From a virus (Duplodnaviria > Heunggongvirae > Uroviricota > Caudoviricetes): a DNA stretch of 64,000 nt. A program made the position numbers and the translations under genes. The stretch is taken from the IMG/VR virus record IMGVR_UViG_3300032053_000007. One strand, 5' to 3'. Below are positions 1,934 through 60,498 of this stretch, in pieces (position 1 is the first letter of the stretch; every line of letters begins with the position of its first letter). The notes beneath the pieces are model-generated. The model was not told where the DNA came from and made no database searches. It saw only the letters and a list, made by a program, of their open reading frames with translations.

Positions 1934-2165
1934 GGTCTGCGAAAGTCGTTTGCGTACAGTCCTTAAAGGTGTAACCGCAAAGATGTTGGAAGTAGTATTT
2001 GACTTCATAGTTCTCGACCTTATCTTCCAACGTCCAGCGGAATCTTTAGGCGTAGCAATTGGGATAGAAGGACTTTGTTATGCTATTACCTATTTCAATG
2101 AACGTGGATGGAATAGAATACAATGGGGAAGAAAAATAATCAATGTTGCCACTAATAGAAATTGA
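1908..2165 (+). CDS. hypothetical protein, possibly membrane
   Basis: track ORF 1857..2165 trimmed to ATG 1908; hydrophobic stretches. Confidence 0.35.
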   Translation: MSKCDHEHKVCESRLRTVLKGVTAKMLEVVFDFIVLDLIFQRPAESLGVAIGIEGLCYAITYFNERGWNRIQWGRKIINVATNRN

Positions 2166-3078
2166 GGGCTTCAAAGTTTCTTTCACTCTTCTTTGGGTTA
2201 GAGATGATACCCCATTTTTAGGGAAAGTAGCTAAAGATGTAGTTCTTCTTGTGCCTATTTACAATACTACAAGACGTTGCTGGAAAGTTTTCGAACGAGC
2301 ACTTTATCGCTTAGACCCACAGCCTGAAAAAGTCATCTTCTGCGAAAACAATAGCGTAGATAATACTCTTGAACTGATTGAAAAGTTTCAGTTGCCACAC
2401 GAAGTTATTCGTATTTGGTTCAAAGAAGATGCCGCTAAGGGACAACCTTATGAGCCAATAGCTAATGTTCGTCAACTGCTTTTAACACGGGCAAGAACAT
2501 TTGGTGCAAACATAGCGATATTTCTCGATGATGACTGTATCCCACAGGATAAAGATTTTATTCAAAGGTTTTTGGATAATATTTATTACGACAATAATCT
2601 CGATATTTGTGGCGGGTCATATACTAGGGATTTTCCACAAGAAACTATGGTAGCAACCGTATGGTCTATTGATGCTCCTATTAAGGACATGCCGAAAGGG
2701 ACTGTTCCGATTATAAAACGAGGAATTGCAAAAGAGATAAGAAAAGCCAGACAACTTAATCTTAATGTTCTCGGCTTTAAATATCAAGATTATGACGAGG
2801 GAAAGATATACAAAGCGACTTGCACAAGTGCTGGTGCTTTGGCGTTAAGCAGAAAAATTCTTAATGATAAAAGATTGAATTTTGTTCCTATACGCCATGA
2901 TTTGGCTAAACAAGAAGAGGGGGCAAGCGAAGACTTTGGATTTTGTCTTTTAGCTGGTAGTTTGGGATATTCAGTTCATCTTGATTTCAGAATAAAGTTC
3001 GCTCATTTGGGTGCTATGTCTAATGAAACGGCAAAAAACCGTCCGTGGGCTACCTATGTGAAAGATTTCAAATATTGA
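2143..3078 (+). CDS. glycosyltransferase family 2-like
   Basis: VLLVPIYNT N-terminus, FLDDDC DxD motif; stop TGA inside cassette 3076. Confidence 0.65.
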   Translation: MLPLIEIEGFKVSFTLLWVRDDTPFLGKVAKDVVLLVPIYNTTRRCWKVFERALYRLDPQPEKVIFCENNSVDNTLELIEKFQLPHEVIRIWFKEDAAKGQPYEPIANVRQLLLTRARTFGANIAIFLDDDCIPQDKDFIQRFLDNIYYDNNLDICGGSYTRDFPQETMVATVWSIDAPIKDMPKGTVPIIKRGIAKEIRKARQLNLNVLGFKYQDYDEGKIYKATCTSAGALALSRKILNDKRLNFVPIRHDLAKQEEGASEDFGFCLLAGSLGYSVHLDFRIKFAHLGAMSNETAKNRPWATYVKDFKY

Positions 3079-6584: not shown

Positions 6585-7298
6585 ATGAAACAAAAACAGA
6601 AATGTTCATCATGTGGACAAGATTATTTCGTAACAATGTTGAAGGTTTACGTCTTCAAGAAACATACTTGCCCTGACGACAAAACAGAATTGGCGAAGTC
6701 TATTGATGGGAATATTTTTGGTTGCCCTAAATGTAAGAAGGTATTTCGTAAAACTGTTCCAACCGAATGGAATAGTATGGGCACAAAAATTGAGGGTTCA
6801 ACTCGAAGTCTCGAAGAAAAAGGAAAAAGACTAATAAAGGAACCGAACACAGAGGTTGACAATGTTATGATTCCAGAGAAATCAATGTGCCAGAAATGTC
6901 GTAATTGGCAAATTAGAAGCGAACAAGCTACCAAGAATCGTGAACGAAAAATTGCAATGGGTGTGCCTGATGACATAAAGGTGGTTCCAGATTCGATAAG
7001 TAACGCTGATATTTACAAATATGAAATTTTCAGAAAAACCCAGACAGACTATCAGGAAACTAGAAAAGCGGAAGCATATGAACTACAGAAGAAAGAACGT
7101 GCCGCAATGGAAGCTGAACGCCAAGCAAAACTAGCCGAACAATTTAAGAAACCAGAAACTATGATACCCACAAAAGAAGAAATGATACCATTGATTGACC
7201 CCGAAACTGCAAAAATCATAGAAGAAGTAAAGAAGAAAGACGCTCACATAGCCGAACTGAAAAAGAAACTTGAGAAAGCACAAAAGGCTGAGAAGTAA
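6585..7298 (+). CDS. zinc-ribbon / coiled-coil protein
   Basis: CSSC, CPKC, CQKC; K/E-rich helical C-terminus; SD GTGATTGAA. Confidence 0.6.
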   Translation: MKQKQKCSSCGQDYFVTMLKVYVFKKHTCPDDKTELAKSIDGNIFGCPKCKKVFRKTVPTEWNSMGTKIEGSTRSLEEKGKRLIKEPNTEVDNVMIPEKSMCQKCRNWQIRSEQATKNRERKIAMGVPDDIKVVPDSISNADIYKYEIFRKTQTDYQETRKAEAYELQKKERAAMEAERQAKLAEQFKKPETMIPTKEEMIPLIDPETAKIIEEVKKKDAHIAELKKKLEKAQKAEK

Positions 7299-8416
7299 TG
7301 ACAGGCGCAGATAATCCAGACGAAATCTGGAAACCTTCCAAAGTATTCAAAAGGTTGGAGAAATTAGGAAAGAAGATGAGAAAACCACGAAAGATTCCAG
7401 AAGGATTCGAATGGGACCCTAAAGCTAAAGAATTGATTGATACTAGATGTAATAATGCAAAACTGAGAAAGTTGGTTAAGGAATCTGTTAAGGTTGATTT
7501 CGATAAACCAGCCATATGTATATCTCCATTCTTTACTGGAACAAAGAAACGCCAAAAAGAACTTCCGTGGGAACACTACCCTCATATTCCTATTTTGACA
7601 ACTAATGCCAGACTTAGAAGGTCATTGCTCGGACTTAGACTTCAATGGACAATAAAAGAAGATGGTGAAAATGTTACCATATGGAAGAGAAAGAAACCAC
7701 ATACGCGGAAACAGTTCGAGTTTGTCATATCAAGTCATAATCAAGAGATAGCCGCTAAGGATATTCAAGCCAGAGTAAGAAAAGATTGTGTAGAGGATTA
7801 TGAGAAAATCGTAGCACTAATCGAAGCTAATCCAACATTCAGAGTAATTGTAGAAGAATGTGCCAAAGGTGCAAGCGTCACAGGGATAAGAAGGTATGAA
7901 AAGCCTATCCTGTTCGTTGTTGACATCTACGATACCGCACTCAAGAATTTCCTTCCTTATACACAGGTATATCAATATTGTTATCACTCTAAAATTCCAG
8001 TTGTCCAGCTTTACGCATCAACAAGACACAGAACAATAAAGGATTTGATAAAGTTTTCTAATCACGTTCTGGAATACTGTAACACCGAAAAGGATTACGG
8101 CAAAGATGAAGGTATGGTACTGAAAACATTCGATAAAGAAGGAGAGTATATTCAAGCAAAAGTGAAACTAGATATTCCAAAGCCAATAGTCGAACGGATA
8201 CGAGAGGGACCGCCAAAGTTACCACAAATTCCAGAGAGCGAAATCATGGGTGCAATAAGCCATGTCGAAGCGGACTTTGGATTAGATGGTACACCAAAAC
8301 ATGATATGCCACTTATTGCTAAAGCCGTTTCAGAAGAATGCCGAAAACATCTCTACTCAAGTCGTGGAAACTTGTTCACATTCTATGAAGATTACATGGA
8401 GCGAAGAAAGAAATGA
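7298..8416 (+). CDS. ATP-dependent RNA/DNA ligase-like nucleotidyltransferase
   Basis: motif I KEDG (K120), motif IV EGMVLK, motif V AKVK. Confidence 0.6.
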   Translation: MTGADNPDEIWKPSKVFKRLEKLGKKMRKPRKIPEGFEWDPKAKELIDTRCNNAKLRKLVKESVKVDFDKPAICISPFFTGTKKRQKELPWEHYPHIPILTTNARLRRSLLGLRLQWTIKEDGENVTIWKRKKPHTRKQFEFVISSHNQEIAAKDIQARVRKDCVEDYEKIVALIEANPTFRVIVEECAKGASVTGIRRYEKPILFVVDIYDTALKNFLPYTQVYQYCYHSKIPVVQLYASTRHRTIKDLIKFSNHVLEYCNTEKDYGKDEGMVLKTFDKEGEYIQAKVKLDIPKPIVERIREGPPKLPQIPESEIMGAISHVEADFGLDGTPKHDMPLIAKAVSEECRKHLYSSRGNLFTFYEDYMERRKK

Positions 8417-8529
8417 GAAGGTATCCCGTTAACTTTAGACCGTATAATTGTTGTGCAACCTGTGGAAATGAAGAATGCACCCATAGATGGTGGGGAAGTT
8501 GCAGAGAATGGACGGAGAAGAAAAAATGA
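8413..8529 (+). CDS. Cys-rich mini-protein (38 aa)
   Basis: ATGA overlap at both ends; CCATCG..C..C. Confidence 0.45.
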   Translation: MRRYPVNFRPYNCCATCGNEECTHRWWGSCREWTEKKK

Positions 8530-8810
8530 AAGCTACATTTGAAGGAATATTAAATCTTTCTAATGAGGAATGGGAACAGAAAAAGAAAGAGATAGAATCC
8601 TTTCGAAATTGTACTATTTGTAATGCACGGCTTGTTATGAATCTTTGTCATCTTTACGAAGACAAATACTATTGTGAAGAACATTGCCCAGAACATAAAT
8701 GGCAAAGTGATTATGATTGGGTTACAGAATGTGCCAAATGTGGATTACATTACGAACATTATCTCCAAAAACTTCTCGAAGATAATAAAATTTCTTATTT
8801 AAAAAGATGA
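8526..8810 (+). CDS. Cys/His-rich protein
   Basis: track ORF 8487.. trimmed to ATG 8526 (ovl). Confidence 0.55.
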   Translation: MKATFEGILNLSNEEWEQKKKEIESFRNCTICNARLVMNLCHLYEDKYYCEEHCPEHKWQSDYDWVTECAKCGLHYEHYLQKLLEDNKISYLKR

Positions 8811-8839
8811 TGATAGTGATATATGGAGAGTAGAAAGAA

Positions 8840-8956
8840 ATGACCGATGAAGAATTACGAATAATTTCAGAAAGTCTTAAAGAATATTTGGAAGCAAGGC
8901 GAGAATATAACAGAGTCTATAGGTATCTTAAAGTTGTAAAGGTAATGAGAAAATGA
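8840..8956 (+). CDS. hypothetical mini-protein (38 aa)
   Basis: ATGA overlap with 8953 gene. Confidence 0.4.
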   Translation: MTDEELRIISESLKEYLEARREYNRVYRYLKVVKVMRK

Positions 8957-9174
8957 TATGTCCACATTGCAGAAAAGGAGAATTAGTAAATCCCAGACAT
9001 AACGTTCAACTAGATGCCGACCTTTATACTTGTAATGTTTGTCATCGTGGTTGGCATCAGGATAAAAAGAAGAGATGGCACAGTCACTTTGCGGCAGACG
9101 TTGAAGTATATAGTGAAAATGGGCATACTCTAATAGACTGTTCAACTTGGCACATAAATGAGGGAAGAAAATGA
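8953..9174 (+). CDS. zinc-ribbon protein
   Basis: CPHC..CNVC. Confidence 0.6.
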   Translation: MICPHCRKGELVNPRHNVQLDADLYTCNVCHRGWHQDKKKRWHSHFAADVEVYSENGHTLIDCSTWHINEGRK

Positions 9175-9596
9175 ACTGGCTTAAAAAAGCTAAAAAGAGT
9201 CTTAAAGAAAAATATAACCCCGATACACAGATAGATAAATGTGAATTGTGCGTATGTTGCTTCAAGAAATATAGAGAAGAATATGCCGTGGATTTTAACG
9301 ATGTATTTTTGAGGGCTTCTAATCTCGATAGTCGTATTAGTGGGGAATATTCACCTTATTACAACCTTATTAGGTTGAACAAAATGTATTTGAAACGTTT
9401 GTTCCAATTGAAAACCGTTGATGATGTAATTAGCCACGAGTTGGAACATGCATTAATTTATCGAATAATGCGGCGATTTGGTTTTTCAGAAGAAGTAAGC
9501 GATATTGGTTCTCTCTGTGTTTCCAAACCGTCACAATTTGATTTAAAAGATTTACGAGAGAAACTACATAAAAGGAAGCCAAAAAAATATGCCTGA
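9171..9596 (+). CDS. small HExxH metallopeptidase-like protein
   Basis: VISHELEHALIY. Confidence 0.55.
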   Translation: MNWLKKAKKSLKEKYNPDTQIDKCELCVCCFKKYREEYAVDFNDVFLRASNLDSRISGEYSPYYNLIRLNKMYLKRLFQLKTVDDVISHELEHALIYRIMRRFGFSEEVSDIGSLCVSKPSQFDLKDLREKLHKRKPKKYA

Positions 9597-11008: not shown

Positions 11009-11404
11009 ATGTTTGAAATCTGGAAAGACCATTTGGCAACTTGTAACATCTTAGAATCTATGACTCCCGAAGGATGGATAATCGTAGATGTTAGAGATAT
11101 AAAGGATGGAACTGGCAACGATATTGAAGCTATAAAAACCAAAATACAAATCATAGCTAACCTTCTTTCTGTCGGGCAAAAAGTTGTAGTTAGATGTTGC
11201 GGCGGAATATCTCGGTCAAATACTATCGCATGTGCCGTAATGGTATTTATGCTTAATATTGACGGCAGAGATTTCGCTTATCATTGGGCAAAAGTTCGAA
11301 AAGCATGTCCACGGGCACTTATAAATATGGGATTCTTTGATGAAGTAAAGAAAGCCTTAGAAGAATTAGGCGTTGAAGAGAAACGGTTATTCTATGATAC
11401 CTAA
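11009..11404 (+). CDS. Cys-based (dual-specificity-type) protein phosphatase
   Basis: C-X5-R signature VVVRCCGGISRSNT. Confidence 0.7.
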   Translation: MFEIWKDHLATCNILESMTPEGWIIVDVRDIKDGTGNDIEAIKTKIQIIANLLSVGQKVVVRCCGGISRSNTIACAVMVFMLNIDGRDFAYHWAKVRKACPRALINMGFFDEVKKALEELGVEEKRLFYDT

Positions 11405-11651
11405 AAAGAAAGTATGGTTAGTCTGGGAATTTCAAATAGTAACTATAGAAACTGCTAAAGTTCAGTTACAGAGTCTTAGAGTTATCGCTGATACGGAAGA
11501 GAAAGGCGTTATCTATAAAGCCATATTTGAAAGAGAGAAACAATGGAAGTTTACTAAAGATGAATTATGGTTTGAACTTGAGGAAAGAGAGGTTAATCAT
11601 ATGTTCGGAATAGAAGACTTGAACAGATATGTGAGTAGAAATAGAATATGA
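11394..11651 (+). CDS. hypothetical protein
   Basis: track ORF 11373.. trimmed to ATG 11394. Confidence 0.5.
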   Translation: MIPKKKVWLVWEFQIVTIETAKVQLQSLRVIADTEEKGVIYKAIFEREKQWKFTKDELWFELEEREVNHMFGIEDLNRYVSRNRI

Positions 11652-12304
11652 ACAAACTTATTTGCTTAATGCCAGTTTACAACTCGGCTGATGTAGTTCT
11701 AGAAGCCTTAAAATCTATAGACGGCAAAGTTGATGAGATATTTTGTCTTGACGGGCGATGGATTGGTACGAGTGGTTTAGACCATTCAACTGATGAAACA
11801 CAGGAAATAATTTTGAATTTTTCTGAACATTCAAAATCTCGTGTTTGTTACACAAGATTACGACCTATGCATCAATGGGAAGCTAGGACAGAATCATTAA
11901 AATTTTGTGGTGATGGAGATTGGGCAATTTTTCTCGACTCAGATGAGATAATAATCATGTGGGGCGATAATGTTCGTAAAACGCTTGAAATATCAAATGA
12001 GAAAGTATATCGTATTTATTGGAAATTTTATAAACCTCATACGGCACTTCTAAGATATGGACTTGTTAAAAAGACAGAAACAATACATTGGTCAACAGAC
12101 CATAGGAGAATATTTGATAAAGATGGTGAATTAGATATAGTACATGCTCCAATAATCAATATTGTATTTGACCATCAAAAAATAGCCGACATAAAGAAGA
12201 TGCGTAAACGAGAGGAAGAATACAAACATTGGCTTCACGAATATGAAACTACACATTGGAATTTAGAAGATGGTCCAGACCCCAATCAAATTGATTTGGG
12301 ATAA
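11648..12304 (+). CDS. glycosyltransferase family 2-like
   Basis: LMPVYNSADVV N-terminus; FLDSDE DxD motif. Confidence 0.6.
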   Translation: MNKLICLMPVYNSADVVLEALKSIDGKVDEIFCLDGRWIGTSGLDHSTDETQEIILNFSEHSKSRVCYTRLRPMHQWEARTESLKFCGDGDWAIFLDSDEIIIMWGDNVRKTLEISNEKVYRIYWKFYKPHTALLRYGLVKKTETIHWSTDHRRIFDKDGELDIVHAPIINIVFDHQKIADIKKMRKREEEYKHWLHEYETTHWNLEDGPDPNQIDLG

Positions 12305-14449: not shown

Positions 14450-14735
14450 TAGACACGGGTAATTGTTCACAACTTACATAGATGGACATGCCCCATGTTA
14501 GGACCTTTCGGGTACACGATTGGCGACAACATGATTGGTCGGACAACGAACAAGACCTATAGGAGTTGGGTGAACCCGCCAGCAATGCATTGGGGGTGGC
14601 GAAACCCTGACAAAACCGTGTCATGACCGAAGACCCACGGTGGGAGCGAAACGTACACTATGATATACGGATTGGCAGAACGGCTCGCCGTGATAGCTAT
14701 GGGGTCGGGTGTACTTTACCCGTCCCCACATTCTA
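14450..14735 (+). ncRNA. candidate structured ncRNA, class unknown
   Basis: own TATA (14420-14427); GC-richer than flanks; no + ORF; ends pair (acgggtaa 14455 / ttacccgt 14718); internal hairpins and GATTGG..ACAAC repeats. Confidence 0.45.
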
Positions 14736-14785: not shown

Positions 14786-15229
14786 ATGGCTAGAATAAAG
14801 AAAAACATCAAAGGTATTCCGTTATTTTTATACGACTTTTTACAAATTTCCTTGTCAGCCTTCAAAGATTATTATCTAAAATTGAAGGTTTCTATAACAG
14901 GAGAAAATTATATTGGTCGTTATGTGGGAATCATTAGTTCATCTGAAAGACGACTTAGTTTTGAGAAATGCATAGCTGGTGGCTATACGGGGTATGTTCA
15001 GATAAAACTTTTCTCAAATCCAGATTGTGATGATTATGAAGAATGTGCAGAAGAAATTCTCAATCATGAAATACTTCATCAAGTGCTTGACAAAGTTGTG
15101 GGGCATGAAGCCAAAATGGGATTAGATAATATTCACAAGTCTTTCTATGTTCTCGATTGCAATGATAATAAGTGGCGGTTTGTGATAAAATTCATTAGCA
15201 AGAAAAAAGGGAATGTAGCCATTATCTGA
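14786..15229 (+). CDS. small HExxH metallopeptidase-like protein
   Basis: ILNHEILHQV; TATA TTTAAATA at 14747. Confidence 0.55.
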   Translation: MARIKKNIKGIPLFLYDFLQISLSAFKDYYLKLKVSITGENYIGRYVGIISSSERRLSFEKCIAGGYTGYVQIKLFSNPDCDDYEECAEEILNHEILHQVLDKVVGHEAKMGLDNIHKSFYVLDCNDNKWRFVIKFISKKKGNVAII

Positions 15230-17102: not shown

Positions 17103-17347
17103 TTGGGTCAACTATTGCTAATATAAGAAAAGACGGACACACTAGATGTGTAGCAATGCATGGTCGGAGTGACCAATGCCCAAAAGAGGCAGAATTCTTA
17201 CTTTACTATAAAATACAAGGAAGAGTTAATGTTGAACCGTTTTGCGAAGATGACGCATATGAATTCTCAATGTATTTCTCGAATTATCTAGGGCTAAAAG
17301 TAATAATCGAAGAGATGAGACTTAAAGAGAGGGTACAATTTACATGA
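17099..17347 (+). CDS. Cys-rich VxFT-tail protein (paralog of 18682)
   Basis: AYEFSMYFSNYLGLKV shared; ends ERVQFT. Confidence 0.6.
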   Translation: MIGSTIANIRKDGHTRCVAMHGRSDQCPKEAEFLLYYKIQGRVNVEPFCEDDAYEFSMYFSNYLGLKVIIEEMRLKERVQFT

Positions 17348-17595
17348 TGAAGAGACCATGTGACAAGTGCAATAATATGTCTGATGCGTTAGTAAGAGTA
17401 CATCCAATTGATAAAAATGGACAAAATTTGGAAACTGTTTATCTTTGCCCAAATTGTCGTGCGGCGTGGGGAAAAGTTTATGATAAGGAAGTAAAGAATG
17501 TTGATTCTATTAAATTCCAAAGTGCGTGGACTAATTCTTGGGAAAACTTTATGAGTGGGAAATATGAAGAACGAGAAGTGGTGCAGTTTACATGA
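17344..17595 (+). CDS. ZR-W family zinc-ribbon mini-protein
   Basis: CDKC..CPNCRAAW; ends EVVQFT. Confidence 0.65.
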   Translation: MMKRPCDKCNNMSDALVRVHPIDKNGQNLETVYLCPNCRAAWGKVYDKEVKNVDSIKFQSAWTNSWENFMSGKYEEREVVQFT

Positions 17596-19692: not shown

Positions 19693-19868
19693 CTGAATAT
19701 AAATGTACTTGTTGCACACTTACCAAAGGATGCATATTACGGACTAACAAACATGGAGAAATTTTTTGCACTCATGGTGGTAAAAGTATCAAAATTCCAA
19801 TTGAAAGGGAAATAAAACGTGGGGATTTAAAAGTGATAATACCGAGAGAGGTAGTGCAATTCACATGA
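19689..19868 (+). CDS. Cys-rich VxFT-tail mini-protein (59 aa)
   Basis: TTG junction start; ends EVVQFT. Confidence 0.5.
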   Translation: MTEYKCTCCTLTKGCILRTNKHGEIFCTHGGKSIKIPIEREIKRGDLKVIIPREVVQFT

Positions 19869-20104
19869 GAGCTAATTGGCTTAAAGGTAGAAAATGTGAC
19901 CGTTGTGGAAAAGAATCTGAATTGGTTTTAGGCAAATTTGAACATTTTCTTTGCAGAGAATGTAGTACAGAATGGGGTAATTTTATACAACCATTTCTTT
20001 CCAAACTTCATGATGTAGCGAGAACTCCTAAATGGTCTGAATTATGGGAAAAAATTTACGCCAAGTTTTTGGCTGAATGGATAGAGAAGGTACAATTCAC
20101 TTGA
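19865..20104 (+). CDS. ZR-W family zinc-ribbon mini-protein
   Basis: CDRCGK..CRECSTEW; ends EKVQFT. Confidence 0.65.
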   Translation: MRANWLKGRKCDRCGKESELVLGKFEHFLCRECSTEWGNFIQPFLSKLHDVARTPKWSELWEKIYAKFLAEWIEKVQFT

Positions 20105-20385
20105 CCGAAGAAATAAATCTTGAAAACCTCATTATTAAGGTGCGAAAAAGTACGCCTAAAAATCATAGACGAGCAAAAATTTGGGTTAAAAAAGGTTCGG
20201 CTAAAGTGGAGATTACTGACCAAGAAAAGTGGCTTAATGTAGAAGATATGTGTTGCGTTCTTAATCACGAGTTTCTTCATTGGATAATTACAAATATGAC
20301 AAAAACAAGACCTAAACAATATGACAAATACTTAGAGAGTCTTGGATTGTACTACCACGAAATATTAAGGGAAATATGGCAATAA
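20101..20385 (+). CDS. small HExxH metallopeptidase-like protein
   Basis: track ORF 20077.. trimmed to junction TTG; VLNHEFLHWI. Confidence 0.55.
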   Translation: MTEEINLENLIIKVRKSTPKNHRRAKIWVKKGSAKVEITDQEKWLNVEDMCCVLNHEFLHWIITNMTKTRPKQYDKYLESLGLYYHEILREIWQ

Positions 20386-27896: not shown

Positions 27897-28841
27897 ATGA
27901 GCGAAGAACAAAGTAAAAAAGAACTAGAGGAAAGAGCTAAATCTGTAATGGAGAGAATGGAAGAGATAATCGCTAAGGCTCAGAATGATGGAACGCTAGA
28001 GAGTTTTAACAAACCAATTCAACTTACTAAAGACTTTCTGACCACTAGACCGAACGATGCAAAGATAAAGACACAAATAGCATTATTCAAAAGCAGAACC
28101 TTCCTAGACAATTTCTTCTTAGACAAAGACGATAAACCTATGGGGGGCATTCCGAAAGTTGCACAGATAGGTGTGGTCGGAAACCCAGATGTCGGCAAGT
28201 CTTTAATCGCTCAGGAAGTTGCGCTCAGATTAGCTAGTGACGGAAACAAAGTTATTTTCACAACTAGCGAAGATATTTTCCAAGCTGACAACGACAGATT
28301 TGATTTGCAGAGTCGAATGAAACAGATGGCAACTTTTCTGGGACTGAGTTGGGAAAACATAAAGCAGAATCTTTTTGTGCTGGACGTTATTGCACACGGC
28401 GAACTTAGAGAATGGAATACACTTGTTTCAACTTATCGCGTACTCGTAGAACAGGAAAAGGCTGAGTTTCTAATTGTCGATTCGTTAACTCTCCTAGATG
28501 ATTATCGTGCTGGACTGAAATTCCACTTAGGCGAATTTGTCCGCTATAATCAGAAGAAAGGCGTGACAGGAATCTTTATCTCACAGAAAGCAAATGAGGA
28601 ATCAGTTGACCAACACGGACTTGCAGGGGGCATTGCATTAAGCCATTTGCTAGACGTGGAGTTTGAAATCAACTTTAAGAAACTCTCAAGTTGGGACGCT
28701 CAAATGAAAATCGACACCGAAGCAAAACAAGGCGAACTTCTACACTTCATACGGGTTCTCAAGTGTCGGCTAGGCAAGGCTGATATGCGATACCACAAAC
28801 TCCAAATAAGTAAAGATGGGATACTTCAATTAATCAAGTGA
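27897..28841 (+). CDS. KaiC/RadA-like RecA-superfamily ATPase
   Basis: Walker A GNPDVGKS, Walker B FLIVDSLT. Confidence 0.7.
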   Translation: MSEEQSKKELEERAKSVMERMEEIIAKAQNDGTLESFNKPIQLTKDFLTTRPNDAKIKTQIALFKSRTFLDNFFLDKDDKPMGGIPKVAQIGVVGNPDVGKSLIAQEVALRLASDGNKVIFTTSEDIFQADNDRFDLQSRMKQMATFLGLSWENIKQNLFVLDVIAHGELREWNTLVSTYRVLVEQEKAEFLIVDSLTLLDDYRAGLKFHLGEFVRYNQKKGVTGIFISQKANEESVDQHGLAGGIALSHLLDVEFEINFKKLSSWDAQMKIDTEAKQGELLHFIRVLKCRLGKADMRYHKLQISKDGILQLIK

Positions 28842-31215: not shown

Positions 31216-31485
31216 GTGAGTGAAAAAGTAAAACAATATCTGCAATGTGGATGCAAAACAAAATTTATTCTTCTTGCTAGAGAGGAACACGAGAAACTTC
31301 ACAGAGATGCGTTTATACATTCTCTTGCACTATATAATGGTGCGATTGTTCACAACAACGTGGCACTACTTCATAGCGGAGAATCTTATTATCCTTCTAT
31401 TTCACTTAATTTAGGGGTTCGCCGTTTAGCTTGGCAAAGACGAGTTGAAATCTGGAACGAACCCGAACGTGTTCAATTTACTTGA
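31216..31485 (+). CDS. VxFT-tail protein
   Basis: GTG start; ends ERVQFT; TGA opens cassette 31483. Confidence 0.55.
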   Translation: MSEKVKQYLQCGCKTKFILLAREEHEKLHRDAFIHSLALYNGAIVHNNVALLHSGESYYPSISLNLGVRRLAWQRRVEIWNEPERVQFT

Positions 31486-31553: not shown

Positions 31554-32450
31554 ATGAGAAATATACTAAAGAATAAAAACGGCGAATGGAGCATTATTCG
31601 AATTGCTATTGTTGTCATCATTTCCGCATTTCTAGTGTTGACAGGCGTTCTAGGAATCAGGACTGTTCCAAGCGGTTACATAGGCGTTTCTACTCAATTC
31701 GGGCAAATTACAGGCACAACGGGTGAAGGCATTCATTGGGTCAACATTTGGTTTGGACAAGACATAGTGAACATTGACTTGCAGATTCATAAAGCAGAAC
31801 TAGCAAACATGTCTTGTGGAACTAACGACATGCAAGAAGTCACAACCACAGTTGCAATAAACTATCGAATTGAGTCTGGATTTGCAGAGGATATTTACAG
31901 AACACTCCGCACAGATTGGGAATCACGGGTTATAATCAACAACATGCAAGAAAGTCTAAAAGGTTCAATCTCTACTTTCAAAGCAGAAGAACTTCTCCAA
32001 AAACGAGATGCAGTAAAAGTTCTCTTTTTAGACACACTTCGCTCACGAATAAAGGATTATCACATAACAGTCGTTGACGTTCAGCTAGAGAACTTCGCAT
32101 TCTCAACAAAGTTCAACGAAGCCATTGAGAACAAAGTAACAGCCGAACAGCAAGCAATCACAGAAAAGAACAACTTAGAAATAGTTCGCTATCAACAGGA
32201 ACAGGAAATTCTCAAGCAACAAGCACAAGCAAACATGACAAGAATTGAAGCAGACGCATACGCATACGCAACTTTGGCAAAAGCCAATGCAGACGCGGAA
32301 GCATTGCAATTAATCGCACAGAAACTAAATGTTAGCCCAGAATATCTTCAATATCTCTATCTGCAACAATGGGACGGCAAACTGCCGACCTATTACGGAA
32401 GCGGTATAATTCCGTTCTTCCAACTGCCAACCAATTCGACAACTCCATAA
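31554..32450 (+). CDS. SPFH/band-7 (prohibitin-like) membrane protein
   Basis: N-terminal TM, RTVPSGYIGVSTQFGQ SPFH core, A/Q/E-rich coiled C-terminus. Confidence 0.75.
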   Translation: MRNILKNKNGEWSIIRIAIVVIISAFLVLTGVLGIRTVPSGYIGVSTQFGQITGTTGEGIHWVNIWFGQDIVNIDLQIHKAELANMSCGTNDMQEVTTTVAINYRIESGFAEDIYRTLRTDWESRVIINNMQESLKGSISTFKAEELLQKRDAVKVLFLDTLRSRIKDYHITVVDVQLENFAFSTKFNEAIENKVTAEQQAITEKNNLEIVRYQQEQEILKQQAQANMTRIEADAYAYATLAKANADAEALQLIAQKLNVSPEYLQYLYLQQWDGKLPTYYGSGIIPFFQLPTNSTTP

Positions 32451-39815: not shown

Positions 39816-40027
39816 CACAAAAATCCTATAATCGTATTTGTGAAAAATGCGGTGAATCTTTTCAAACGAATAACGATATTCTTTGTCAAAAATGCAGAGA
39901 AAAATGGTATAATTTTTACGAACTTCACAAAAACGATGCCGACATTCCAGAATCCGAAGCAAAAGCAACCTTTCTCTGGGACAAGTTTATTAAAAGGGTA
40001 GATAAAGAGGTAGTGCAATTTACATGA
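39812..40027 (+). CDS. ZR-W family zinc-ribbon mini-protein
   Basis: CEKCG..CQKCREKW; ends EVVQFT. Confidence 0.65.
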   Translation: MTQKSYNRICEKCGESFQTNNDILCQKCREKWYNFYELHKNDADIPESEAKATFLWDKFIKRVDKEVVQFT

Positions 40028-40233
40028 AGAAATATCCATTAGCTCTAACAAAGAAGTGCGGTAATTGTGGTAGAACTTTCACTTGTAAAGGGAGAGGATG
40101 GACTAAATCTTCAATAACGGGAAAATGTCCTCACGAATATAGCGTTTGTTGGTGTGAAAAATGCAATCATGGGTCGGGTCGTCCAGAAGGTTGCGAAGAG
40201 GTTGACTTAAAAGAAGTGGTGCAATTCACATGA
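40024..40233 (+). CDS. ZR-F family zinc-ribbon mini-protein
   Basis: CGNCGRTFTCKG..CWCEKC; ends EVVQFT. Confidence 0.65.
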   Translation: MKKYPLALTKKCGNCGRTFTCKGRGWTKSSITGKCPHEYSVCWCEKCNHGSGRPEGCEEVDLKEVVQFT

Positions 40234-42651: not shown

Positions 42652-42684
42652 CGAGCATGGTCGTTCTGGGGAAACCTTTATAAG
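42652..42684 (+). promoter_or_regulatory. GAGCATGG-box/TATA promoter cassette
   Basis: cGAGCATGGtcgTTCT..TTTATAAG; offset 24; leader cgctggcatctata shared with 44919 cassette. Confidence 0.65.
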
Positions 42685-42714
42685 CTACGCTGGCATCTAT
42701 AAAGGTGTGGAAAA

Positions 42715-44442
42715 ATGACAAAGCAGAAACAAGCAAAGACGAACAACTTCTCTAAGATACTTGACGAGATGAGGAATCTTGCCATAGCAATTACGAAGGA
42801 CAAACGGATTCGTATCAAGTATATTCCAGAACAACCAACTTCTGCTTTCAATATGGAAAACTTTGAGATTTCTTTGAGTTTACAGAGTTATCCCGATTTC
42901 GTGAAAACATCGCCCCGTCTATTCCGAAAAATCCTAGACGGTGACATGGTTCACGAGTGCGGTCATCTGATTCTAACAAAACCGAATTGGGAATTTTTCA
43001 ACAATTGGACAACAAAAATCAAACGACAGAGAGGATTTTACAAGCTGGCTCACGAAGTTTGCAACATAGTTGAAGATAAGCGCGTGAATCATTTCATAAT
43101 TCTCAGATACAGGTTTGATGTCGGCAAGAGGCTACTTTTGGCGAATTTGATACTAAAAGACATGATAGACAACACAATTGAAAAGCCACAAATAGCCATG
43201 TCAACCATCTTACCGAAGGGCGAAAACTTAGGCGAAAACGAAATTCCAAACATGACAATTCAAGCTGGACAACAAGACGGGGTTTACATGGTTGCAATTT
43301 TGTGCAATGAAGGTCTATATGAGGCTAAATGCACAGAGTTATGGAACAAACTAAGCCCAGATGCTAGAAAGGACTGTGAAACAGCCCTTAAAGTGCTAGA
43401 GGGGACGAAATATCAACGTGTCAAACTCGACATAATAAGGTCTTGCCAAACGATTTATGAATTGGTAGCTAAACACTTGAACGCTGACTATACGACAAAG
43501 GAATATGTCGTTTCTAGAAGAGGGGGCAACGTAAAGGGCAAAATATCGGACAGACTTAGGCAATTACTAGAAAAAGAGGAAGAGCAAGAAAAGGCAGAAG
43601 AGGACAAGAAGAAACACCTAGAAGATTTGCAGAAAGGTTCGGGTGCTGGCGAAGGCACAGGCGAAGAGATTCCAGCCCCAGACCCAGATTTTGAGGCGTA
43701 TTCGAAACTTCTGGACGAATGCAAGCCTGAAATTTCCGAGCTATTGAATCAACTAAAGAAGAAAATGAAACCGAGAGTTCAACGGGACATTTTCCAGAAA
43801 CGCGGAAAAATGATGAGTCCAATTGTTCCACGCATCTACACAAACAGCTTTAGGGGAACCGTTCGCAATGTGTATCTGCGTACAACAACAAAATTTGAGA
43901 AGGAACAAGTCGCAATTCAATTTTGGTTCGATTTCTCAGGGTCAGTTAGTCGAATAGAGGCTGAAAAGATAACCACTATACTGAATGAGGTCTTTGGACA
44001 TTACGTTGACGATTACGGGTTCAGTATTGGGTGCTTTGGGGCAGATACCCAGAAAGTAAAGACTTTCTTTGAAACCTTCGAAAACACACGGGCAAGAATT
44101 GGAGCTATTTCGGTGAATGCTGGCGGTACTGAGGTTTCCGTTGGATTAGAGGCAAGCCTGAGAATGTTCAATACGATTAAAGGCGAACGCCGAAAGATTC
44201 TGGTCATTGCGTCCGATTTCTGCTTCTGTGGTGATGAAGAAACGAAAGCAGAGGAATTAATCGACCAATATGCGAAAGCTGGAATTGAATGTATCTTCAT
44301 AGGTTTCTGTGACTGTGAGAATGTAGAAACCTTCGCAAGCAAAGTGAAAAACTTGAAGTGCTCACGAACACGGATAAACCAAATATCCGAATTACCTCAG
44401 AGATTCCTAAACGTGTATCTAAACGTAGAAACCCAGAAGTGA
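42715..44442 (+). CDS. vWA-domain protein with N-terminal HExxH putative metallopeptidase domain
   Basis: MVHECGHLI; MIDAS-like FDFSGSVS; E/K-rich linker; architecture as in metallopeptidase-plus-VWA proteins partnered with MoxR ATPases. Confidence 0.65.
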   Translation: MTKQKQAKTNNFSKILDEMRNLAIAITKDKRIRIKYIPEQPTSAFNMENFEISLSLQSYPDFVKTSPRLFRKILDGDMVHECGHLILTKPNWEFFNNWTTKIKRQRGFYKLAHEVCNIVEDKRVNHFIILRYRFDVGKRLLLANLILKDMIDNTIEKPQIAMSTILPKGENLGENEIPNMTIQAGQQDGVYMVAILCNEGLYEAKCTELWNKLSPDARKDCETALKVLEGTKYQRVKLDIIRSCQTIYELVAKHLNADYTTKEYVVSRRGGNVKGKISDRLRQLLEKEEEQEKAEEDKKKHLEDLQKGSGAGEGTGEEIPAPDPDFEAYSKLLDECKPEISELLNQLKKKMKPRVQRDIFQKRGKMMSPIVPRIYTNSFRGTVRNVYLRTTTKFEKEQVAIQFWFDFSGSVSRIEAEKITTILNEVFGHYVDDYGFSIGCFGADTQKVKTFFETFENTRARIGAISVNAGGTEVSVGLEASLRMFNTIKGERRKILVIASDFCFCGDEETKAEELIDQYAKAGIECIFIGFCDCENVETFASKVKNLKCSRTRINQISELPQRFLNVYLNVETQK

Positions 44443-44918: not shown

Positions 44919-44951
44919 TGAACATGGTCTTTCTAAGCAAACATTTAAATA
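44919..44951 (+). promoter_or_regulatory. GAGCATGG-box/TATA promoter cassette
   Basis: tGAACATGGtctTTCT..TTTAAATA; offset 24. Confidence 0.65.
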
Positions 44952-44985
44952 GGACGCTGGCATCTATACTCGTAAGGTAATAAAG

Positions 44986-45873
44986 ATGAACTCAGAATTT
45001 GAAAAGATTCATGCAAAGGTCGAATCAGCACTTGAAGGTGCTGGCATCTACGTCAAAGGCATCGAGTTCGTGGACGAACATGGCTACATTGAAAAGTCAA
45101 GAGCGATTCTTGAAATTGTCGGCAACCTTAGATTAGTCGGCGAAACGGGGACGGGCAAAACAACTCTTGTTCACAAGTTGGCTGAATTGTTAGAGGTTCC
45201 GCTTTTTGAAATTGTCTTAACACGGGACGTGACAAAGTGGGATTTGCTGGCATGTGATACTCTGAAAGCTGGAAGCACAGAAACAAGAGATGGAATCATA
45301 ATTCAATGGTTGAACAGCGAGAAAGGTCTGCTTTACATAGACGGGTTCAACTATGCAGAACCATCGATAATTTCACTTCTGGAATCATTGGCAGACTTTA
45401 GGGGAAACGTGTATATTCCAGAATACAAGAAGCAATTCACACGGACAGCACAGCACTATCTCGTTATCAGCTATAACCCCTCAGAAAAATCGGGTTACTC
45501 TGGGACATTCATCGAGAACATTGCAACCATTAGACGATTTGAAGGTCTGATAATCGAATACCTTAGCCCCCAGAAAGAACGCGAATTGGTAAAGAAGTTC
45601 TCTGGAAACTATGACTTTTCTGCGAAGTTCGTAGAAATTGCCAAAAAGACGCGAACCGAATACGAGAACGGAAAACTTAGAACGCCCCTCACGACAGGCA
45701 ACCTAATAAACTACGGCAAACTCTACAAAGCGAAGATGTCCGAAGAGGACATAATCGATATAGCAAGTTCGCTTTACACCGCAAGAGAAGAGCGCAATTT
45801 ATTTAGGTCGTTCTTCGAAGATAGCTCTGAGATAGACGTAGAAAAGTTGAAAAAGAAAGAAGAGGATACCTAA
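44986..45873 (+). CDS. AAA+ ATPase, MoxR/CbbQ/CobS-like (AAA_5 type)
   Basis: Walker A GETGTGKTT; LLYIDGFNYA Walker B region (Gly where Glu is expected); IRRFEG like the MoxR DRF motif. Confidence 0.7.
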   Translation: MNSEFEKIHAKVESALEGAGIYVKGIEFVDEHGYIEKSRAILEIVGNLRLVGETGTGKTTLVHKLAELLEVPLFEIVLTRDVTKWDLLACDTLKAGSTETRDGIIIQWLNSEKGLLYIDGFNYAEPSIISLLESLADFRGNVYIPEYKKQFTRTAQHYLVISYNPSEKSGYSGTFIENIATIRRFEGLIIEYLSPQKERELVKKFSGNYDFSAKFVEIAKKTRTEYENGKLRTPLTTGNLINYGKLYKAKMSEEDIIDIASSLYTAREERNLFRSFFEDSSEIDVEKLKKKEEDT

Positions 45874-50068: not shown

Positions 50069-50259
50069 CGTTTCAAGTTGGCGATAAGGCAAAGCTAAAA
50101 TACGCTGGCTTTAGGCATTGCCCCAAAGGTTCATTTGTTAAAATTACAAGAATTATGTCAAACAGAACCATTGATATAAGATATAAAACCGAAAGGTATG
50201 TTGTATCTGATACAGATTTAATCGAATTACAACAAAAGGAGAAGGTATGTTTCACATGA
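50065..50259 (+). CDS. VxFT-tail mini-protein
   Basis: ends EKVCFT. Confidence 0.6.
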   Translation: MTFQVGDKAKLKYAGFRHCPKGSFVKITRIMSNRTIDIRYKTERYVVSDTDLIELQQKEKVCFT

Positions 50260-50462
50260 CAACAATAGACGATAACGGTTATATCGAGTACGATTATGAG
50301 GATTTGTGTACGGAATGCAAGATGCACGATAAATGTCACGAAAACAGTATTGATTATGATGAAATTGATAAATGTTGTCAAGAACTTAATTCTCAAATGA
50401 AAGCGCGAGGAACCAAACTATATAAAACCCCAGAGCCAAAAGAGAAGGTGTTATTCACATGA
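50256..50462 (+). CDS. acidic Cys-rich VxFT-tail mini-protein
   Basis: trimmed to junction ATG; CTECKMHDKC; ends EKVLFT. Confidence 0.6.
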   Translation: MTTIDDNGYIEYDYEDLCTECKMHDKCHENSIDYDEIDKCCQELNSQMKARGTKLYKTPEPKEKVLFT

Positions 50463-52323: not shown

Positions 52324-52356
52324 CGAACATGGACGTTCTAGGCGAAACTTTATATA
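52324..52356 (+). promoter_or_regulatory. GAGCATGG-box/TATA promoter cassette
   Basis: cGAACATGGacgTTCT..TTTATATA; offset 24. Confidence 0.6.
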
Positions 52357-52370
52357 GCGCGCTGTACTGA

Positions 52371-54746: not shown

Positions 54747-54776
54747 GCATGGACGTTCTTAGGAAACCTTTATATA
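54744..54776 (+). promoter_or_regulatory. GAGCATGG-box/TATA promoter cassette
   Basis: tGAGCATGGacgTTCT..TTTATATA; offset 24. Confidence 0.65.
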
Positions 54777-54809
54777 GCTCGGTGTTGTTGTTATTATCAA
54801 GTGAACAAG

Positions 54810-56792: not shown

Positions 56793-57287
56793 TTGAACGA
56801 TAAGGACGAATTGACACGACTTGAAAACTTAGCGCAAAAACTAGGTTTTACCGTGATATATAATTTAACCCTTAGCTGGAATCATTCGAAGGTTTCCTTT
56901 TATCCATGTCGAAGAATCCTTATCGGAACTAAGAACTATTCACCAAATTCAAATATCGGTTATGGAACCATACCTGATAAGGTTAAAGCGTTAATTCTGA
57001 ATCACGAGCTAGGGCATATTGTCGTATATGAAACGCTTTACCCTAACATGGATTTAGCTGATTTTTGTCTCTCAAATGATTCAAAATTCTTGGTACAACA
57101 AGAGATGTACGCATGGAAAACCGCAATAAATGAATCGCTCGATGATAATTCTGACCCTCTAGTGTTGGAATTGATACAAGAATCGATAAACCAATACATT
57201 TATTGTGAGTATATCGGAACATGCACAATAGAATCTCAGCAAGAACTACAGCAAAAAATAATTACTAAGTTTACACGTACAAAATAG
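56793..57287 (+). CDS. small HExxH metallopeptidase-like protein
   Basis: LNHELGHIVVYE; TTG 56793 six nt after AAGGACGTG (track used GTG 56784). Confidence 0.55.
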   Translation: MNDKDELTRLENLAQKLGFTVIYNLTLSWNHSKVSFYPCRRILIGTKNYSPNSNIGYGTIPDKVKALILNHELGHIVVYETLYPNMDLADFCLSNDSKFLVQQEMYAWKTAINESLDDNSDPLVLELIQESINQYIYCEYIGTCTIESQQELQQKIITKFTRTK

Positions 57288-60024: not shown

Positions 60025-60498
60025 ATGCCAATAAAAACCGTGGAATTTGTCTTATATCTCTCGGACGTTGTAAACTTAGGCTTTTCAGAATTGACGATTC
60101 AAAAAATTAAGCAGAGATTGATAGACCACTTTTCATTTGGTACGAATTTACCAGAGAATTACGTTGTAATTTATCCTCATATTGTAGCGTTTGAGATGCA
60201 CAACGAGGATAAAATTGTTCGCAAATTTAACTATACAGTTCTGCATGAATTGATACACGGATTACTTGAAGAGAGTGAACTTAATACAGAAGAGATGTGC
60301 CACGCTTGGAGTATGATACTAACCGATGACCGTGAATCAAATGTAAGCGGTCAAGGACACCACTATTATCAAATGTTAAAAGGACGAACAGAAATCGTTG
60401 TAAACGAAGAACCCAAATTCGAGGCGGAAAAGCTAAACGCGGCGCGGAATTTGTCCAGAATGCGATTAGTGAAACACCATGAGCTAACAGGACTTTAA
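60025..60498 (+). CDS. small HExxH metallopeptidase-like protein
   Basis: VLHELIHGLLEE. Confidence 0.55.
   Translation: MPIKTVEFVLYLSDVVNLGFSELTIQKIKQRLIDHFSFGTNLPENYVVIYPHIVAFEMHNEDKIVRKFNYTVLHELIHGLLEESELNTEEMCHAWSMILTDDRESNVSGQGHHYYQMLKGRTEIVVNEEPKFEAEKLNAARNLSRMRLVKHHELTGL

What the first reader, a model, noticed from the sequence alone, without database searches (positions are those of the whole stretch)
9171..9596. Six small proteins with an HExxH motif scattered through the element
Six proteins of 94-164 aa contain a single HExxH in a similar central position, with little other similarity by eye:
- 9171 (HELEH)
- 14786 (HEILH)
- 20101 (HEFLH)
- 56793 (HELGH)
- 60025 (HELIH)
- the N-terminus of the vWA protein (HECGH)

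Multiple minimal zincin-like proteins in one mobile element is unusual. They could be ImmA/IrrE-like regulators that cleave repressors, SprT-like or WLM-like proteases, or anti-defence proteases.
Basis: partly seen in the sequence, partly recalled or inferred. Interest (0 to 1): 0.55.

Follow-up and report, generated by a model that had tools for sequence, protein, structure and literature searches.

The report
Several small zinc-protease-like phage genes
A long stretch of small accessory genes from a large uncultivated phage carries five unrelated small proteins and one larger protein with the zinc-protease motif HExxH; this is far more than chance and at least three to four look like real zincin-type proteases, but having several such genes is already a described habit of very large phages.

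Summary
Seven + strand ORFs contain HExxH where about one is expected (P about 5e-4). Six of them have the hydrophobic zincin context, against 0.1 expected. The seventh (31216-31485) is a chance hit.

The six are not paralogues and differ in how well they are supported:
- 9171-9596 is SprT-like, just under the Pfam cut-off in three family members.
- 60025-60498 weakly matches the minimal zincin 3e11/Zincin_1.
- The vWA protein shares an N-terminal HExxH...ED.R domain with phage 'CobT' proteins and sits beside a MoxR/CobS-like AAA_5 ATPase.
- 14786-15229 and 20101-20385 rest on the conserved motif only (one fold prediction failed, the other was not run).

The families are narrow; one has 4 representatives among 1.84 billion proteins.

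The element is a phage of at least 152 kb. Jumbo phages are already reported to carry 1-3 SprT-like peptidases and a MoxR-vWA-peptidase pair, so I rate this as new members of a known kind, of modest interest. Substrates are unknown; host-directed proteolysis is inferred.

More striking, and unexplained: 75 small ORFs in the window share the C-terminal tail E-K-V-x-F-T.

The parts
9171..9596 (+). 141-aa SprT-like small zincin candidate. HELEH is at residues 89-93. E107, D111 and C116 downstream are invariant, as is an N-terminal CxCC cluster (C27, C29, C30).
   Evidence: Pfam SprT-like E=2.4e-4, 21.4 bits against a cut-off of 25.6, covering profile positions 4-78 of 108. Homologues P0004 and P0003 score 24.7 and 24.2 bits. 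NCBIfam SprT E=0.0027. Alignment A1 of 4 sequences down to 49% identity keeps the motif. In the related contig L011 an unrelated ORF occupies this slot.
14786..15229 (+). 147-aa HExxH protein of unresolved fold. AGGY, HE.LHQV, G106 and L113-D114-x-I116 are invariant. It has its own promoter-like CCTTTAAATA element, preceded by a hairpin.
   Evidence: Alignment A4 has 10 sequences down to 40% identity. AF2 failed with pLDDT 42.6. Pfam and PDB searches give only noise.
20101..20385 (+). 94-aa minimal HExxH protein (102 aa from the ATG at 20077), with HEFLH followed by YDK and YYHE. It is translationally coupled to the upstream gene through an ACTTGA junction.
   Evidence: Only 79-88% identical homologues were found, so conservation says little. 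No family or PDB hit.
42715..44442 (+). 575-aa protein. The N-terminal domain has HECGH (80-84) and NIVEDKRVN (E120, D121, R123). The C-terminal vWA domain has the MIDAS-like DFSGS.
   Evidence: VWA E=2.4e-4, 21.8 bits against a cut-off of 23.8. The N-terminus aligns with the 'CobT' protein of Ochrobactrum phage OC and with Cantare gp56; H, E, H, V, E, D and R are invariant. There is no Pfam hit for the N-terminus.
44986..45873 (+). 295-aa MoxR/CobS-like AAA_5 ATPase, the partner of the vWA protein.
   Evidence: Pfam AAA_5 1.1e-13 with a CbbQ_C trace. phrog_249 'porphyrin biosynthesis' 8.9e-28. tblastn hits to phage CobS-like genes that lie next to CobT-like vWA genes.
56793..57287 (+). 164-aa gluzincin-like protein, 167 aa from the GTG at 56784 (numbering below follows the 167-aa form). 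HExGH is at 74-78. The invariant E107-x2-A110-W111-K112 lies on a later helix. Structurally it is nearest the M78 (CapP/IrrE) and ArdC proteases.
60025..60498 (+). 157-aa HExxH protein. YTVxHELIH and E89-E90-x2-H93 are invariant. It is a borderline match to minimal zincins (Zincin_1 / PDB 3e11).
   Evidence: Alignment A6 has homologues at 52% and 43% identity in L012 and L008. The profile against PDB gives a single hit, 3e11_A 'predicted zincin-like metalloprotease', E=0.013. Weak Pfam hits to SprT-like, Tox-MPTase3 and Zincin_1 at E 0.02-0.05. phrog_1233 at 2e-4.
31216..31485 (+). 89-aa ORF whose HEKLH is best read as a chance occurrence. It is not part of the zincin set.
   Evidence: The motif is at residue 25 in a charged context (REEHEKLHRD). 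There are no family hits. The protein ends in ERVQFT and so belongs to the tail-tagged small-ORF set.

Best explanation
The window is a co-directional array of about 170-200 small accessory genes from a large uncultivated phage (contigs of at least 152 kb) found in environmental metagenomes. Scattered in it are five mutually unrelated, lineage-restricted small proteins and one vWA fusion protein that carry a zincin-type HExxH active-site helix.

Most likely they are stand-alone zinc metallopeptidases. The two His residues and a downstream acidic or His residue would hold Zn2+, and the motif Glu would act as general base. Candidate third ligands are E107 in 56793-57287, E107 or D111 in 9171-9596, E89, E90 or H93 in 60025-60498, D114 in 14786-15229, and E120 or D121 in the vWA protein.

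The small ones are most plausibly variable host-directed (takeover or counter-defence) proteases, each with its own substrate. The vWA-peptidase would work with the adjacent MoxR/CobS-like AAA_5 ATPase as a chaperone-plus-processing pair.

Shown here: motif enrichment, motif conservation within each family, a zincin-like predicted fold for one protein, and near-threshold family hits for two more.

Inferred, not shown: metal binding, catalysis, substrates, and the zincin fold of 14786-15229 and 20101-20385.
For: Enrichment: 7 HExxH against 1.06 expected. Six lie in zincin context against 0.10 expected, and there are none in minus-strand ORFs.

Conservation: HExxH and a downstream acidic residue are invariant in every family alignment.

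9171-9596: three family members score 21-25 bits on SprT-like, against a cut-off of 25.6.

60025-60498: the only PDB profile hit is a minimal zincin, E=0.013.

vWA protein: N-terminal motifs collinear with phage CobT-like partners of CobS-like ATPases.

Phage context: PHROG hits, Lar, HNH, RNA ligase, and flanking RNR and dCMP deaminase genes.

Variability: the 9171 slot holds an unrelated gene in a close relative.

Literature: jumbo phages carry 1-3 variable SprT-like MPTases proposed to cleave host proteins, and a MoxR-vWA pair with an N-terminal MPTase (PMC7824862). ArdC-like proteins are reported in huge phages (10.1101/2025.02.27.640493).
Against: - No hit passes a curated Pfam or NCBIfam threshold for any of the six.
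- AF2 failed for 14786-15229. Three small proteins and the vWA N-terminus have no structural test.
- The 9171-9596 family lacks the conserved third His of SprT/Spartan.
- No substrate, partner or host is known.
- The strict-context motif statistic was defined post hoc.
- No structural phage genes were seen within the stretches read, so 'phage' rests on gene content.
Confidence: 0.55

Rival explanations
1. HExxH occurs by chance in helical small proteins, and none or few of these are metallopeptidases.
For: One of the seven (31216-31485) clearly looks like chance. 20101-20385 and 14786-15229 have no fold or family support. No curated threshold is passed by any of the six.
Against: The motif is about 7-fold enriched, and about 60-fold with hydrophobic context. 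It is invariant in alignments down to 29-49% identity, together with a downstream acidic residue. One protein has a zincin-like predicted fold. All weak family hits point to zincin families.
Confidence: 0.07
2. They are ImmA/IrrE/CapP-type regulatory proteases that cleave a cognate HTH repressor to switch phage or host gene expression.
For: The nearest structures to 56793-57287 are CapP, PrpR and IrrE, all M78. P0023 gives weak M78 and capP HMM hits.
Against: No HTH or other recognisable partner lies next to any of the genes. There is no lysogeny module in the window. M78 Pfam scores are far below threshold: 13.7 bits against 22. The proteins lack the extra sensor domains of CapP and IrrE, being 164 aa against 240-278 aa for the matched chains.
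Confidence: 0.1
3. The small proteins, 9171-9596 above all, act on DNA-bound proteins. That would mean SprT/Spartan-like removal of DNA-protein crosslinks, or ArdC-like protection of incoming DNA from restriction.
Against: No DNA-binding domain is detectable: there is no ArdC N-terminal domain and no SprT zinc ribbon hit. The third His ligand of SprT is missing.
Confidence: 0.13
4. They are virion-maturation or assembly proteases that act on phage proteins. For the vWA/AAA_5 pair the alternative is a CobS/CobT-like chelatase, as database annotations say.
For: Iyer et al. propose that the MoxR-vWA-peptidase pair works in virion assembly. Phage homologues are annotated CobT/CobS or porphyrin biosynthesis.
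Against: The small genes lie among variable early-type accessory ORFs, not structural genes. One is replaced by an unrelated gene in a close relative, which is unlike essential maturation proteases. No CobN or cobalamin pathway is seen in the window.
Confidence: 0.12

Closest known systems
SprT-like metallopeptidases present in 1-3 variable copies in group 2.2 jumbo phages (Iyer et al. 2021, PMC7824862)
   Same: They are small stand-alone zincin proteins in large phage genomes, variable between close relatives and present in several copies. 9171-9596 gives SprT-like hits over profile positions 4-78.
   Different: Here there are five mutually unrelated families, not copies of one family. Scores fall just under the Pfam cut-off. 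No conserved third His is present.
ImmA/IrrE (peptidase M78) proteases, including CapP of CBASS operons (PDB 7t5t) and IrrE/PprI (8sln)
   Same: These are the best structural matches of the 56793-57287 model. The HExGH motif and a Glu about 29 residues downstream on a later helix also agree.
   Different: There is no adjacent HTH substrate and no C-terminal sensor domain. Sequence hits are at noise level. The family is an orphan one with 4 representatives.
ArdC C-terminal metalloprotease domain (R388 plasmid, PDB 6sna; PMC7213743)
   Different: No ssDNA-binding N-terminal domain is present, and there is no sequence similarity.
Phage MoxR/CobS-like AAA_5 ATPase plus vWA 'CobT' protein with an N-terminal metallopeptidase domain (Ochrobactrum phage vB_OspM_OC QIG65680/QIG65679; Brevibacterium phage Cantare gp55/gp56; described in PMC7824862)
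   Same: The two genes are adjacent, in the same order as in phage OC. The N-terminal HExxH...V..x.ED.R motif, the C-terminal vWA domain and the overall length all agree.
   Different: Sequences are very divergent: tblastn against 50,697 phage records finds nothing, and the pairwise BLASTP score is only 32 bits.
Minimal zincins: Zincin_1/DUF1025 (PDB 3e11) and the minigluzincins proabylysin and projannalysin (4jiu, 4jix)
   Different: The matches are borderline, and none passes a family threshold.

Membership tests
SprT-like (PF10263), for 9171-9596 | Score at or above the Pfam gathering threshold (25.6 bits) | tested here: not met
   21.4 bits for the window protein, 24.7 for P0004 and 24.2 for P0003. 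The scores are consistent but all just under the threshold. A precomputed PF10263 hit is on record for P0004.
SprT-like (PF10263), for 9171-9596 | N-terminal alpha/beta region plus an HExxH helix collinear with the family profile | tested here: met
   The alignment covers profile positions 4-78 of 108, ending at HELEH. HELEH is invariant in A1.
SprT-like (PF10263), for 9171-9596 | Third zinc ligand is a His a short distance after HExxH, as in SprT/Spartan (from my own knowledge of the family) | tested here: not met
   No invariant His lies downstream. The invariant residues are E107, D111 and C116. Profile positions 79-108 are not matched.
ImmA/IrrE peptidase M78 (PF06114), for 56793-57287 | Score at or above the Pfam gathering threshold (22 bits) | tested here: not met
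   The best family member, P0023, scores 13.7 bits (E=0.055) over profile positions 4-93 of 123. One other member reaches E=0.2.
ImmA/IrrE peptidase M78 (PF06114), for 56793-57287 | HExxH plus a Glu third ligand on a following helix, in a zincin fold like solved M78 structures | tested here: met
ImmA/IrrE peptidase M78 (PF06114), for 56793-57287 | A cognate HTH repressor or substrate encoded next to the protease | tested here: not met
   The neighbours 56581-56784, 57341-57631, 57703-58299 and 58302-58532 have no HTH hit at E<=0.1.
Zincin_1 / DUF1025 (PF06262; PDB 3e11), for 60025-60498 | Significant sequence or profile match that includes the strand-helix region before HExxH | tested here: inconclusive
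   The A6 profile against PDB gives a single hit, 3e11_A, at E=0.013 over 44 residues ending at HE..H. Pfam Zincin_1 scores 14 bits against a cut-off of 22.4 for the L012 homologue.
DUF2201_N (PF13203), for the N-terminus of 42715-44442 | Pfam match to the putative metallopeptidase domain | tested here: not met
   No hit at E<=1 for the whole protein or for residues 1-200.
Phage MoxR/CobS-vWA('CobT') pair with N-terminal peptidase, for 42715-44442 and 44986-45873 | An AAA_5 ATPase adjacent to a vWA protein whose N-terminus carries HExxH and a downstream ED.R motif | tested here: met
   AAA_5 at 1.1e-13. The genes are adjacent. An alignment with two phage proteins has invariant H80, E81, H84, V115, E120, D121 and R123. 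The vWA hit itself is sub-threshold at 21.8 against 23.8 bits, but DFSGS is present.
Zincin fold, for 14786-15229 | Predicted or solved structure with the HExxH on the active-site helix after a mixed beta-sheet | tested here: inconclusive
   AF2 with 10 sequences gave pLDDT 42.6 and pTM 0.27. No fold search was run because the model is unusable.
Zincin fold, for 20101-20385, 9171-9596, 60025-60498 and the vWA N-terminus | Predicted or solved structure with the HExxH on the active-site helix | not tested

The most novel reading that the evidence does not exclude
The phage carries a battery of at least five unrelated, lineage-specific mini-zincins. Each would be a dedicated protease that inactivates a different host immune or housekeeping protein: a protease-based counter-defence arsenal sitting among Lar-like and other anti-defence genes. 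A more speculative variant links them to the 75 small proteins in the same region that share the C-terminal tail E-K-V-x-F-T, as processing or turnover enzymes for that tag.
Probability: 0.15. Interest if true: 0.7.

Novelty: new member of a known kind. Interest (0 to 1): 0.33.

Why it matters
If these proteins are active, they add several unannotated, very narrow families to the zincin superfamily. One of them has only 4 representatives among 1.84 billion proteins.

They would also give concrete candidates for phage proteases that cut host proteins. That activity has been proposed for jumbo phages, but few substrates are known. For genome annotation, the result shows that HExxH enrichment together with within-family conservation can flag such genes where Pfam, PHROGs and NCBIfam all fail.

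The general phenomenon, several small zincins plus a MoxR-vWA-peptidase pair in large phages, is already in the literature. The gain is therefore incremental unless substrates are found.

Tried and rejected
Searches and tests that led nowhere:
- Nucleotide searches of the vWA/AAA region against phage and plasmid collections found no match.
- tblastn against phages found nothing for 9171-9596, the vWA protein or the KaiC-like ATPase.
- IMG/VR scans found no relatives with the vWA protein, 60025-60498, A4, A1 or A6.
- GTDB genome scans with A6 and A4 found none.
- The one metagenome scan, for 20077-20385, returned only 82-87% identical copies.
- PDB sequence or profile searches gave nothing relevant for A1, A3, A4, A7 or the vWA protein.
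- PADLOC gave only a weak capP hit, for P0023.
- AF2 of 14786-15229 failed.
- The afdb50 fold library was unavailable.
- Foldseek against PDB was not significant.

Ideas considered and rejected:
- That the six are diverged paralogues. This is rejected for lack of evidence: BLASTP and hhalign align only the motif helix. The best pairs are 9171/56784 at 55% (27% with the larger alignment) and 14786/20077 at 32%.
- A split FtsH-like AAA-plus-zincin pair for 14786-15229. A 454-aa AAA gene is coupled upstream of the homologue in L010, but it is absent from the window and from L011, so the association is not conserved.
- ImmA/ImmR-type modules, because there are no HTH neighbours.
- 31216-31485 as a zincin, because of its charged context and its membership of the tail family.

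Full report
**What is there**

- 9171-9596: 141 aa, HELEH at residue 89.
- 14786-15229: 147 aa, HEILH at 94.
- 20077-20385: 102 aa, HEFLH at 64.
- 42715-44442: 575 aa, HECGH at 80.
- 56784-57287: 167 aa, HELGH at 74.
- 60025-60498: 157 aa, HELIH at 74.

20101 is the TTG of an ACTTGA stop/start junction, a junction used by dozens of genes here. 56793 is a TTG that aligns with the ATG of three other copies of a promoter/RBS element, and homologues start there. The size range of 94-164 aa therefore holds for five proteins. The sixth is a 575-aa protein.

**Is it more than chance?**

A non-overlapping + strand ORF set of 169 ORFs (17,212 aa) has 7 HExxH. Within-protein shuffling gives 1.06 (P about 5e-4). 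Control motifs are at background, and 10,763 aa of minus-strand ORFs have none.

Six of the seven have hydrophobic residues at the positions that pack the zincin active-site helix (HE[LIVMFC]xHx[LIVMFYW]). Shuffling gives 0.10, and 0 of 5000 shuffles reach six. That pattern was chosen after seeing the sequences.

The seventh motif (REEHEKLHRD) lacks this context. Its protein belongs to an unrelated set of tail-tagged small ORFs. I treat it as chance.

**What the element is**

- The window has about 170-200 short, co-directional ORFs, GC 0.37 and no tRNA.
- It has no nucleotide match to isolated phages or plasmids.
- Pfam and PHROG hits include two GT2 glycosyltransferases, an RNA ligase, a DSPc phosphatase, a KaiC-like ATPase, an SPFH protein, Lar-like restriction alleviation, HNH endonucleases, many zinc ribbons and a CobS-like AAA_5 ATPase.
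- Identical proteins occur on metagenomic contigs of 86-152 kb.
- Upstream of the window those contigs carry sugar-modification genes, ParB_N and Trypsin_2. Downstream they carry dCMP deaminase, the ribonucleotide reductase large subunit and HNH.

This is the accessory region of a large, possibly jumbo, uncultivated phage. No structural gene was seen in the stretches I could read, so 'phage' rests on gene content.

**Are the six related to each other?**

No. BLASTP finds nothing beyond the motif. hhalign between the family alignments aligns only the HExxH helix. The best pairs are 9171/56784 (probability 55% with A3, 27% with the larger A5) and 14786/20077 (32%). They are separate families, not recent paralogues.

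**Protein by protein**

*56793-57287*
- Eleven homologues down to 29% identity keep H74, E75, G77, H78 and E107-x2-A110-W111-K112 invariant (numbering from 56784).
- An exhaustive HMMER search of 1.84 billion representatives found only four, so this is an orphan family.
- AlphaFold2 gave pLDDT 86.5 and pTM 0.85. The order of elements is helix, three strands, the long HExxH helix (65-85), a short helix, then the helix carrying E107 (100-118).
- Foldseek against PDB is not significant, although its two best hits are Spartan and BlaR1. BFVD gives weak matches to small phage 'IrrE', 'Peptidase' and 'SprT-like' proteins.
- The most divergent member gives weak M78, M48 and capP HMM hits.
- Conclusion: a gluzincin-type fold nearest M78. 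It is not a demonstrable M78 member, and it has no HTH neighbour.

*9171-9596*
- Only four homologues exist, down to 49% identity. HELEH, E107, D111 and C116 are invariant, as is an N-terminal CxCC cluster.
- Three members score 21.4, 24.7 and 24.2 bits on Pfam SprT-like (cut-off 25.6), over profile positions 4-78 of 108. NCBIfam SprT gives E=0.0027.
- The part of the profile that holds the third His is not matched, and no downstream His is conserved.
- In the related contig L011 the flanking RNA ligase and 225-aa gene are about 80% identical, yet the slot holds an unrelated 147-aa ORF without HExxH. The gene is a variable cassette.

*60025-60498*
- Homologues at 52% and 43% identity keep YTVxHELIH and E89-E90-x2-H93.
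- The family profile's only PDB hit is 3e11_A, 'predicted zincin-like metalloprotease', at E=0.013. The match covers the strand-helix region that ends at the motif.
- Weak Pfam hits all name zincin families: SprT-like, Tox-MPTase3 and Zincin_1.

*42715-44442*
- The C-terminus is a sub-threshold vWA domain (E=2.4e-4) with DFSGS.
- The gene precedes an AAA_5 (MoxR/CobS-like) ATPase at 44986-45873.
- The distant phage homologues of that ATPase sit beside long vWA proteins: 'CobT' of Ochrobactrum phage vB_OspM_OC and gp56 of Brevibacterium phage Cantare.
- The N-termini of those two proteins align with the window protein. H80, E81, H84, V115, E120, D121 and R123 are invariant.
- Pfam does not recognise the N-terminal domain in any of the three, so DUF2201_N is not supported.

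*14786-15229*
- Ten homologues down to 40% identity keep AGGY, HE.LHQV, G106 and L113-D114-x-I116.
- AlphaFold failed (pLDDT 42.6). Pfam and PDB searches give noise.

*20101-20385*
- Only 79-88% identical copies were found, and there is no family hit.

For these last two proteins, the zincin assignment rests on motif context only.

**How it most likely works**

The conserved His-Glu-x-x-His plus a downstream acidic or His residue is the standard zincin arrangement for holding one Zn2+ and activating water. I infer single-domain metallopeptidases.

Several features fit host-directed proteases with different substrates:
- The genes sit among early-type accessory ORFs and anti-restriction genes.
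- The families are very narrow.
- One of them is swapped out in a close relative.

Iyer et al. proposed exactly this for the 1-3 variable SprT-like peptidases of group 2.2 jumbo phages. The same paper describes the MoxR-vWA pair with an N-terminal peptidase and suggests a role in assembly and processing (PMC7824862). ArdC-like metalloprotease proteins are also reported in huge phages (10.1101/2025.02.27.640493), and ArdC counters restriction (PMC7213743).

Catalysis, metal binding and substrates are all untested.

**Expression context**

Four of the genes (14786, 42715, 56793 and 60025) are directly preceded by a recurrent promoter-like element..TTTA(T/A)A(T/A)A.., about 40-50 nt before the start. 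9171 and 20101 are coupled to upstream genes.

**Verdict**

- The zincin interpretation is supported for three to four of the six and open for two.
- The ImmA-type regulator and DUF2201_N ideas are not supported.
- Several small zincins plus a peptidase-vWA/MoxR pair is a described property of very large phages. What is new here is several previously unannotated families and a somewhat higher count than reported.
- Interest is modest.

**A side observation that may deserve its own follow-up**

Seventy-five of 203 + strand ORFs between 5.9 and 51.9 kb end in the same peptide, [K/R/P]-E-[K/V]-V-x-F-T. It is usually followed by a TGA that overlaps the next start codon.
- Conservation is three-periodic: codon positions 1-2 are fixed and position 3 is free. 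This points to selection on the peptide, although GARAAGGT also resembles a Shine-Dalgarno site.
- With the tail removed, the proteins fall into 56 groups with no BLAST link between them.
- The tail recurs in related contigs and is absent from unrelated phages.
- I found no literature on it.
- None of the six zincin candidates carries it.

Noticed in passing
window 5875-51907 (75 ORFs, e.g. 17344-17595, 19865-20104, 40024-40233, 50247-50462): 75 of 203 + strand ORFs (median 74 aa, many with CxxC pairs) end in the same C-terminal peptide [KRP]-E-[KV]-V-x-F-T. In 68 of the 75 a TGA stop overlaps the next ATG or TTG. Conservation is three-periodic, which points to selection on the peptide. Without the tail the proteins fall into 56 BLAST-unlinked groups. 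The tail also occurs in related contigs (L010 29/60 ORFs, L011 20/46, L014 8/15) and is absent from unrelated phages. No literature was found. Its function is unknown; it could be a tag, a docking motif, or a recombination or translation-coupling junction.
   Followed up: partly
window, at least 22 copies, e.g. 961-1001, 42652-42717, 44919-44984, 52325-52365, 54745-54785: A recurrent intergenic element, GAGCATGG-N4-TTCT-N8-10-..TTTATA(T/A)AGGACG, lies about 40-60 nt before gene starts. It is probably a phage-specific promoter. Copies sit directly before the vWA and AAA_5 genes.
   Followed up: partly
window 56745-56795, 57294-57344, 58863-58913, 61475-61525: A second repeated upstream element, TTTATAAG..TATTATACTCTTAAGGACGTG(N5-6)ATG, occurs only in the last 8 kb or so. 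There GC is higher, GC skew drops and the tail-tagged ORFs stop, which suggests a different transcription class.
   Followed up: no
L011 4250-4693 versus window 8487-9596: In a related contig the flanks are about 80% identical at the protein level. Yet the three ORFs that include the SprT-like gene are replaced by one unrelated 147-aa ORF. This is cassette replacement at a fixed position.
   Followed up: yes
L010 8640-10004: In one relative a 454-aa classical AAA (PF00004) gene is translationally coupled upstream of the 14786-15229 homologue. It is absent from the window and from L011. Those carry instead about 370 nt of non-coding DNA with a GGGGTCGGG...CCCGTCCCC hairpin (window about 14701-14727) followed by a promoter-like CCTTTAAATA.
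   Followed up: partly
L008 3750-3896: A 48-aa ORF in a related contig carries HEIGHEFGNH, the extended metzincin-type HExxHxxGxxH motif. It looks like a fragment of yet another zincin gene, and it has no counterpart in the window.
   Followed up: no
window 27897-28841, 31554-32450, 7298-8416, 11009-11404, 2143-3078, 11648-12304: Other recognisable genes are a KaiC/RecA-like ATPase, an SPFH/Band 7 protein (phage homologues are annotated prohibitin or 'protease'), an RNA ligase, a dual-specificity phosphatase and two GT2 glycosyltransferases. Lar-like, DUF7417, DUF7569 and several HNH hits also occur but were not mapped to ORFs.
   Followed up: partly
L010 16659-16985 and 14714-15376: A close relative carries a weak Acb5 (anti-CBASS) hit and a transglutaminase-core protein in the equivalent region. 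That is consistent with an anti-defence or accessory island.
   Followed up: no
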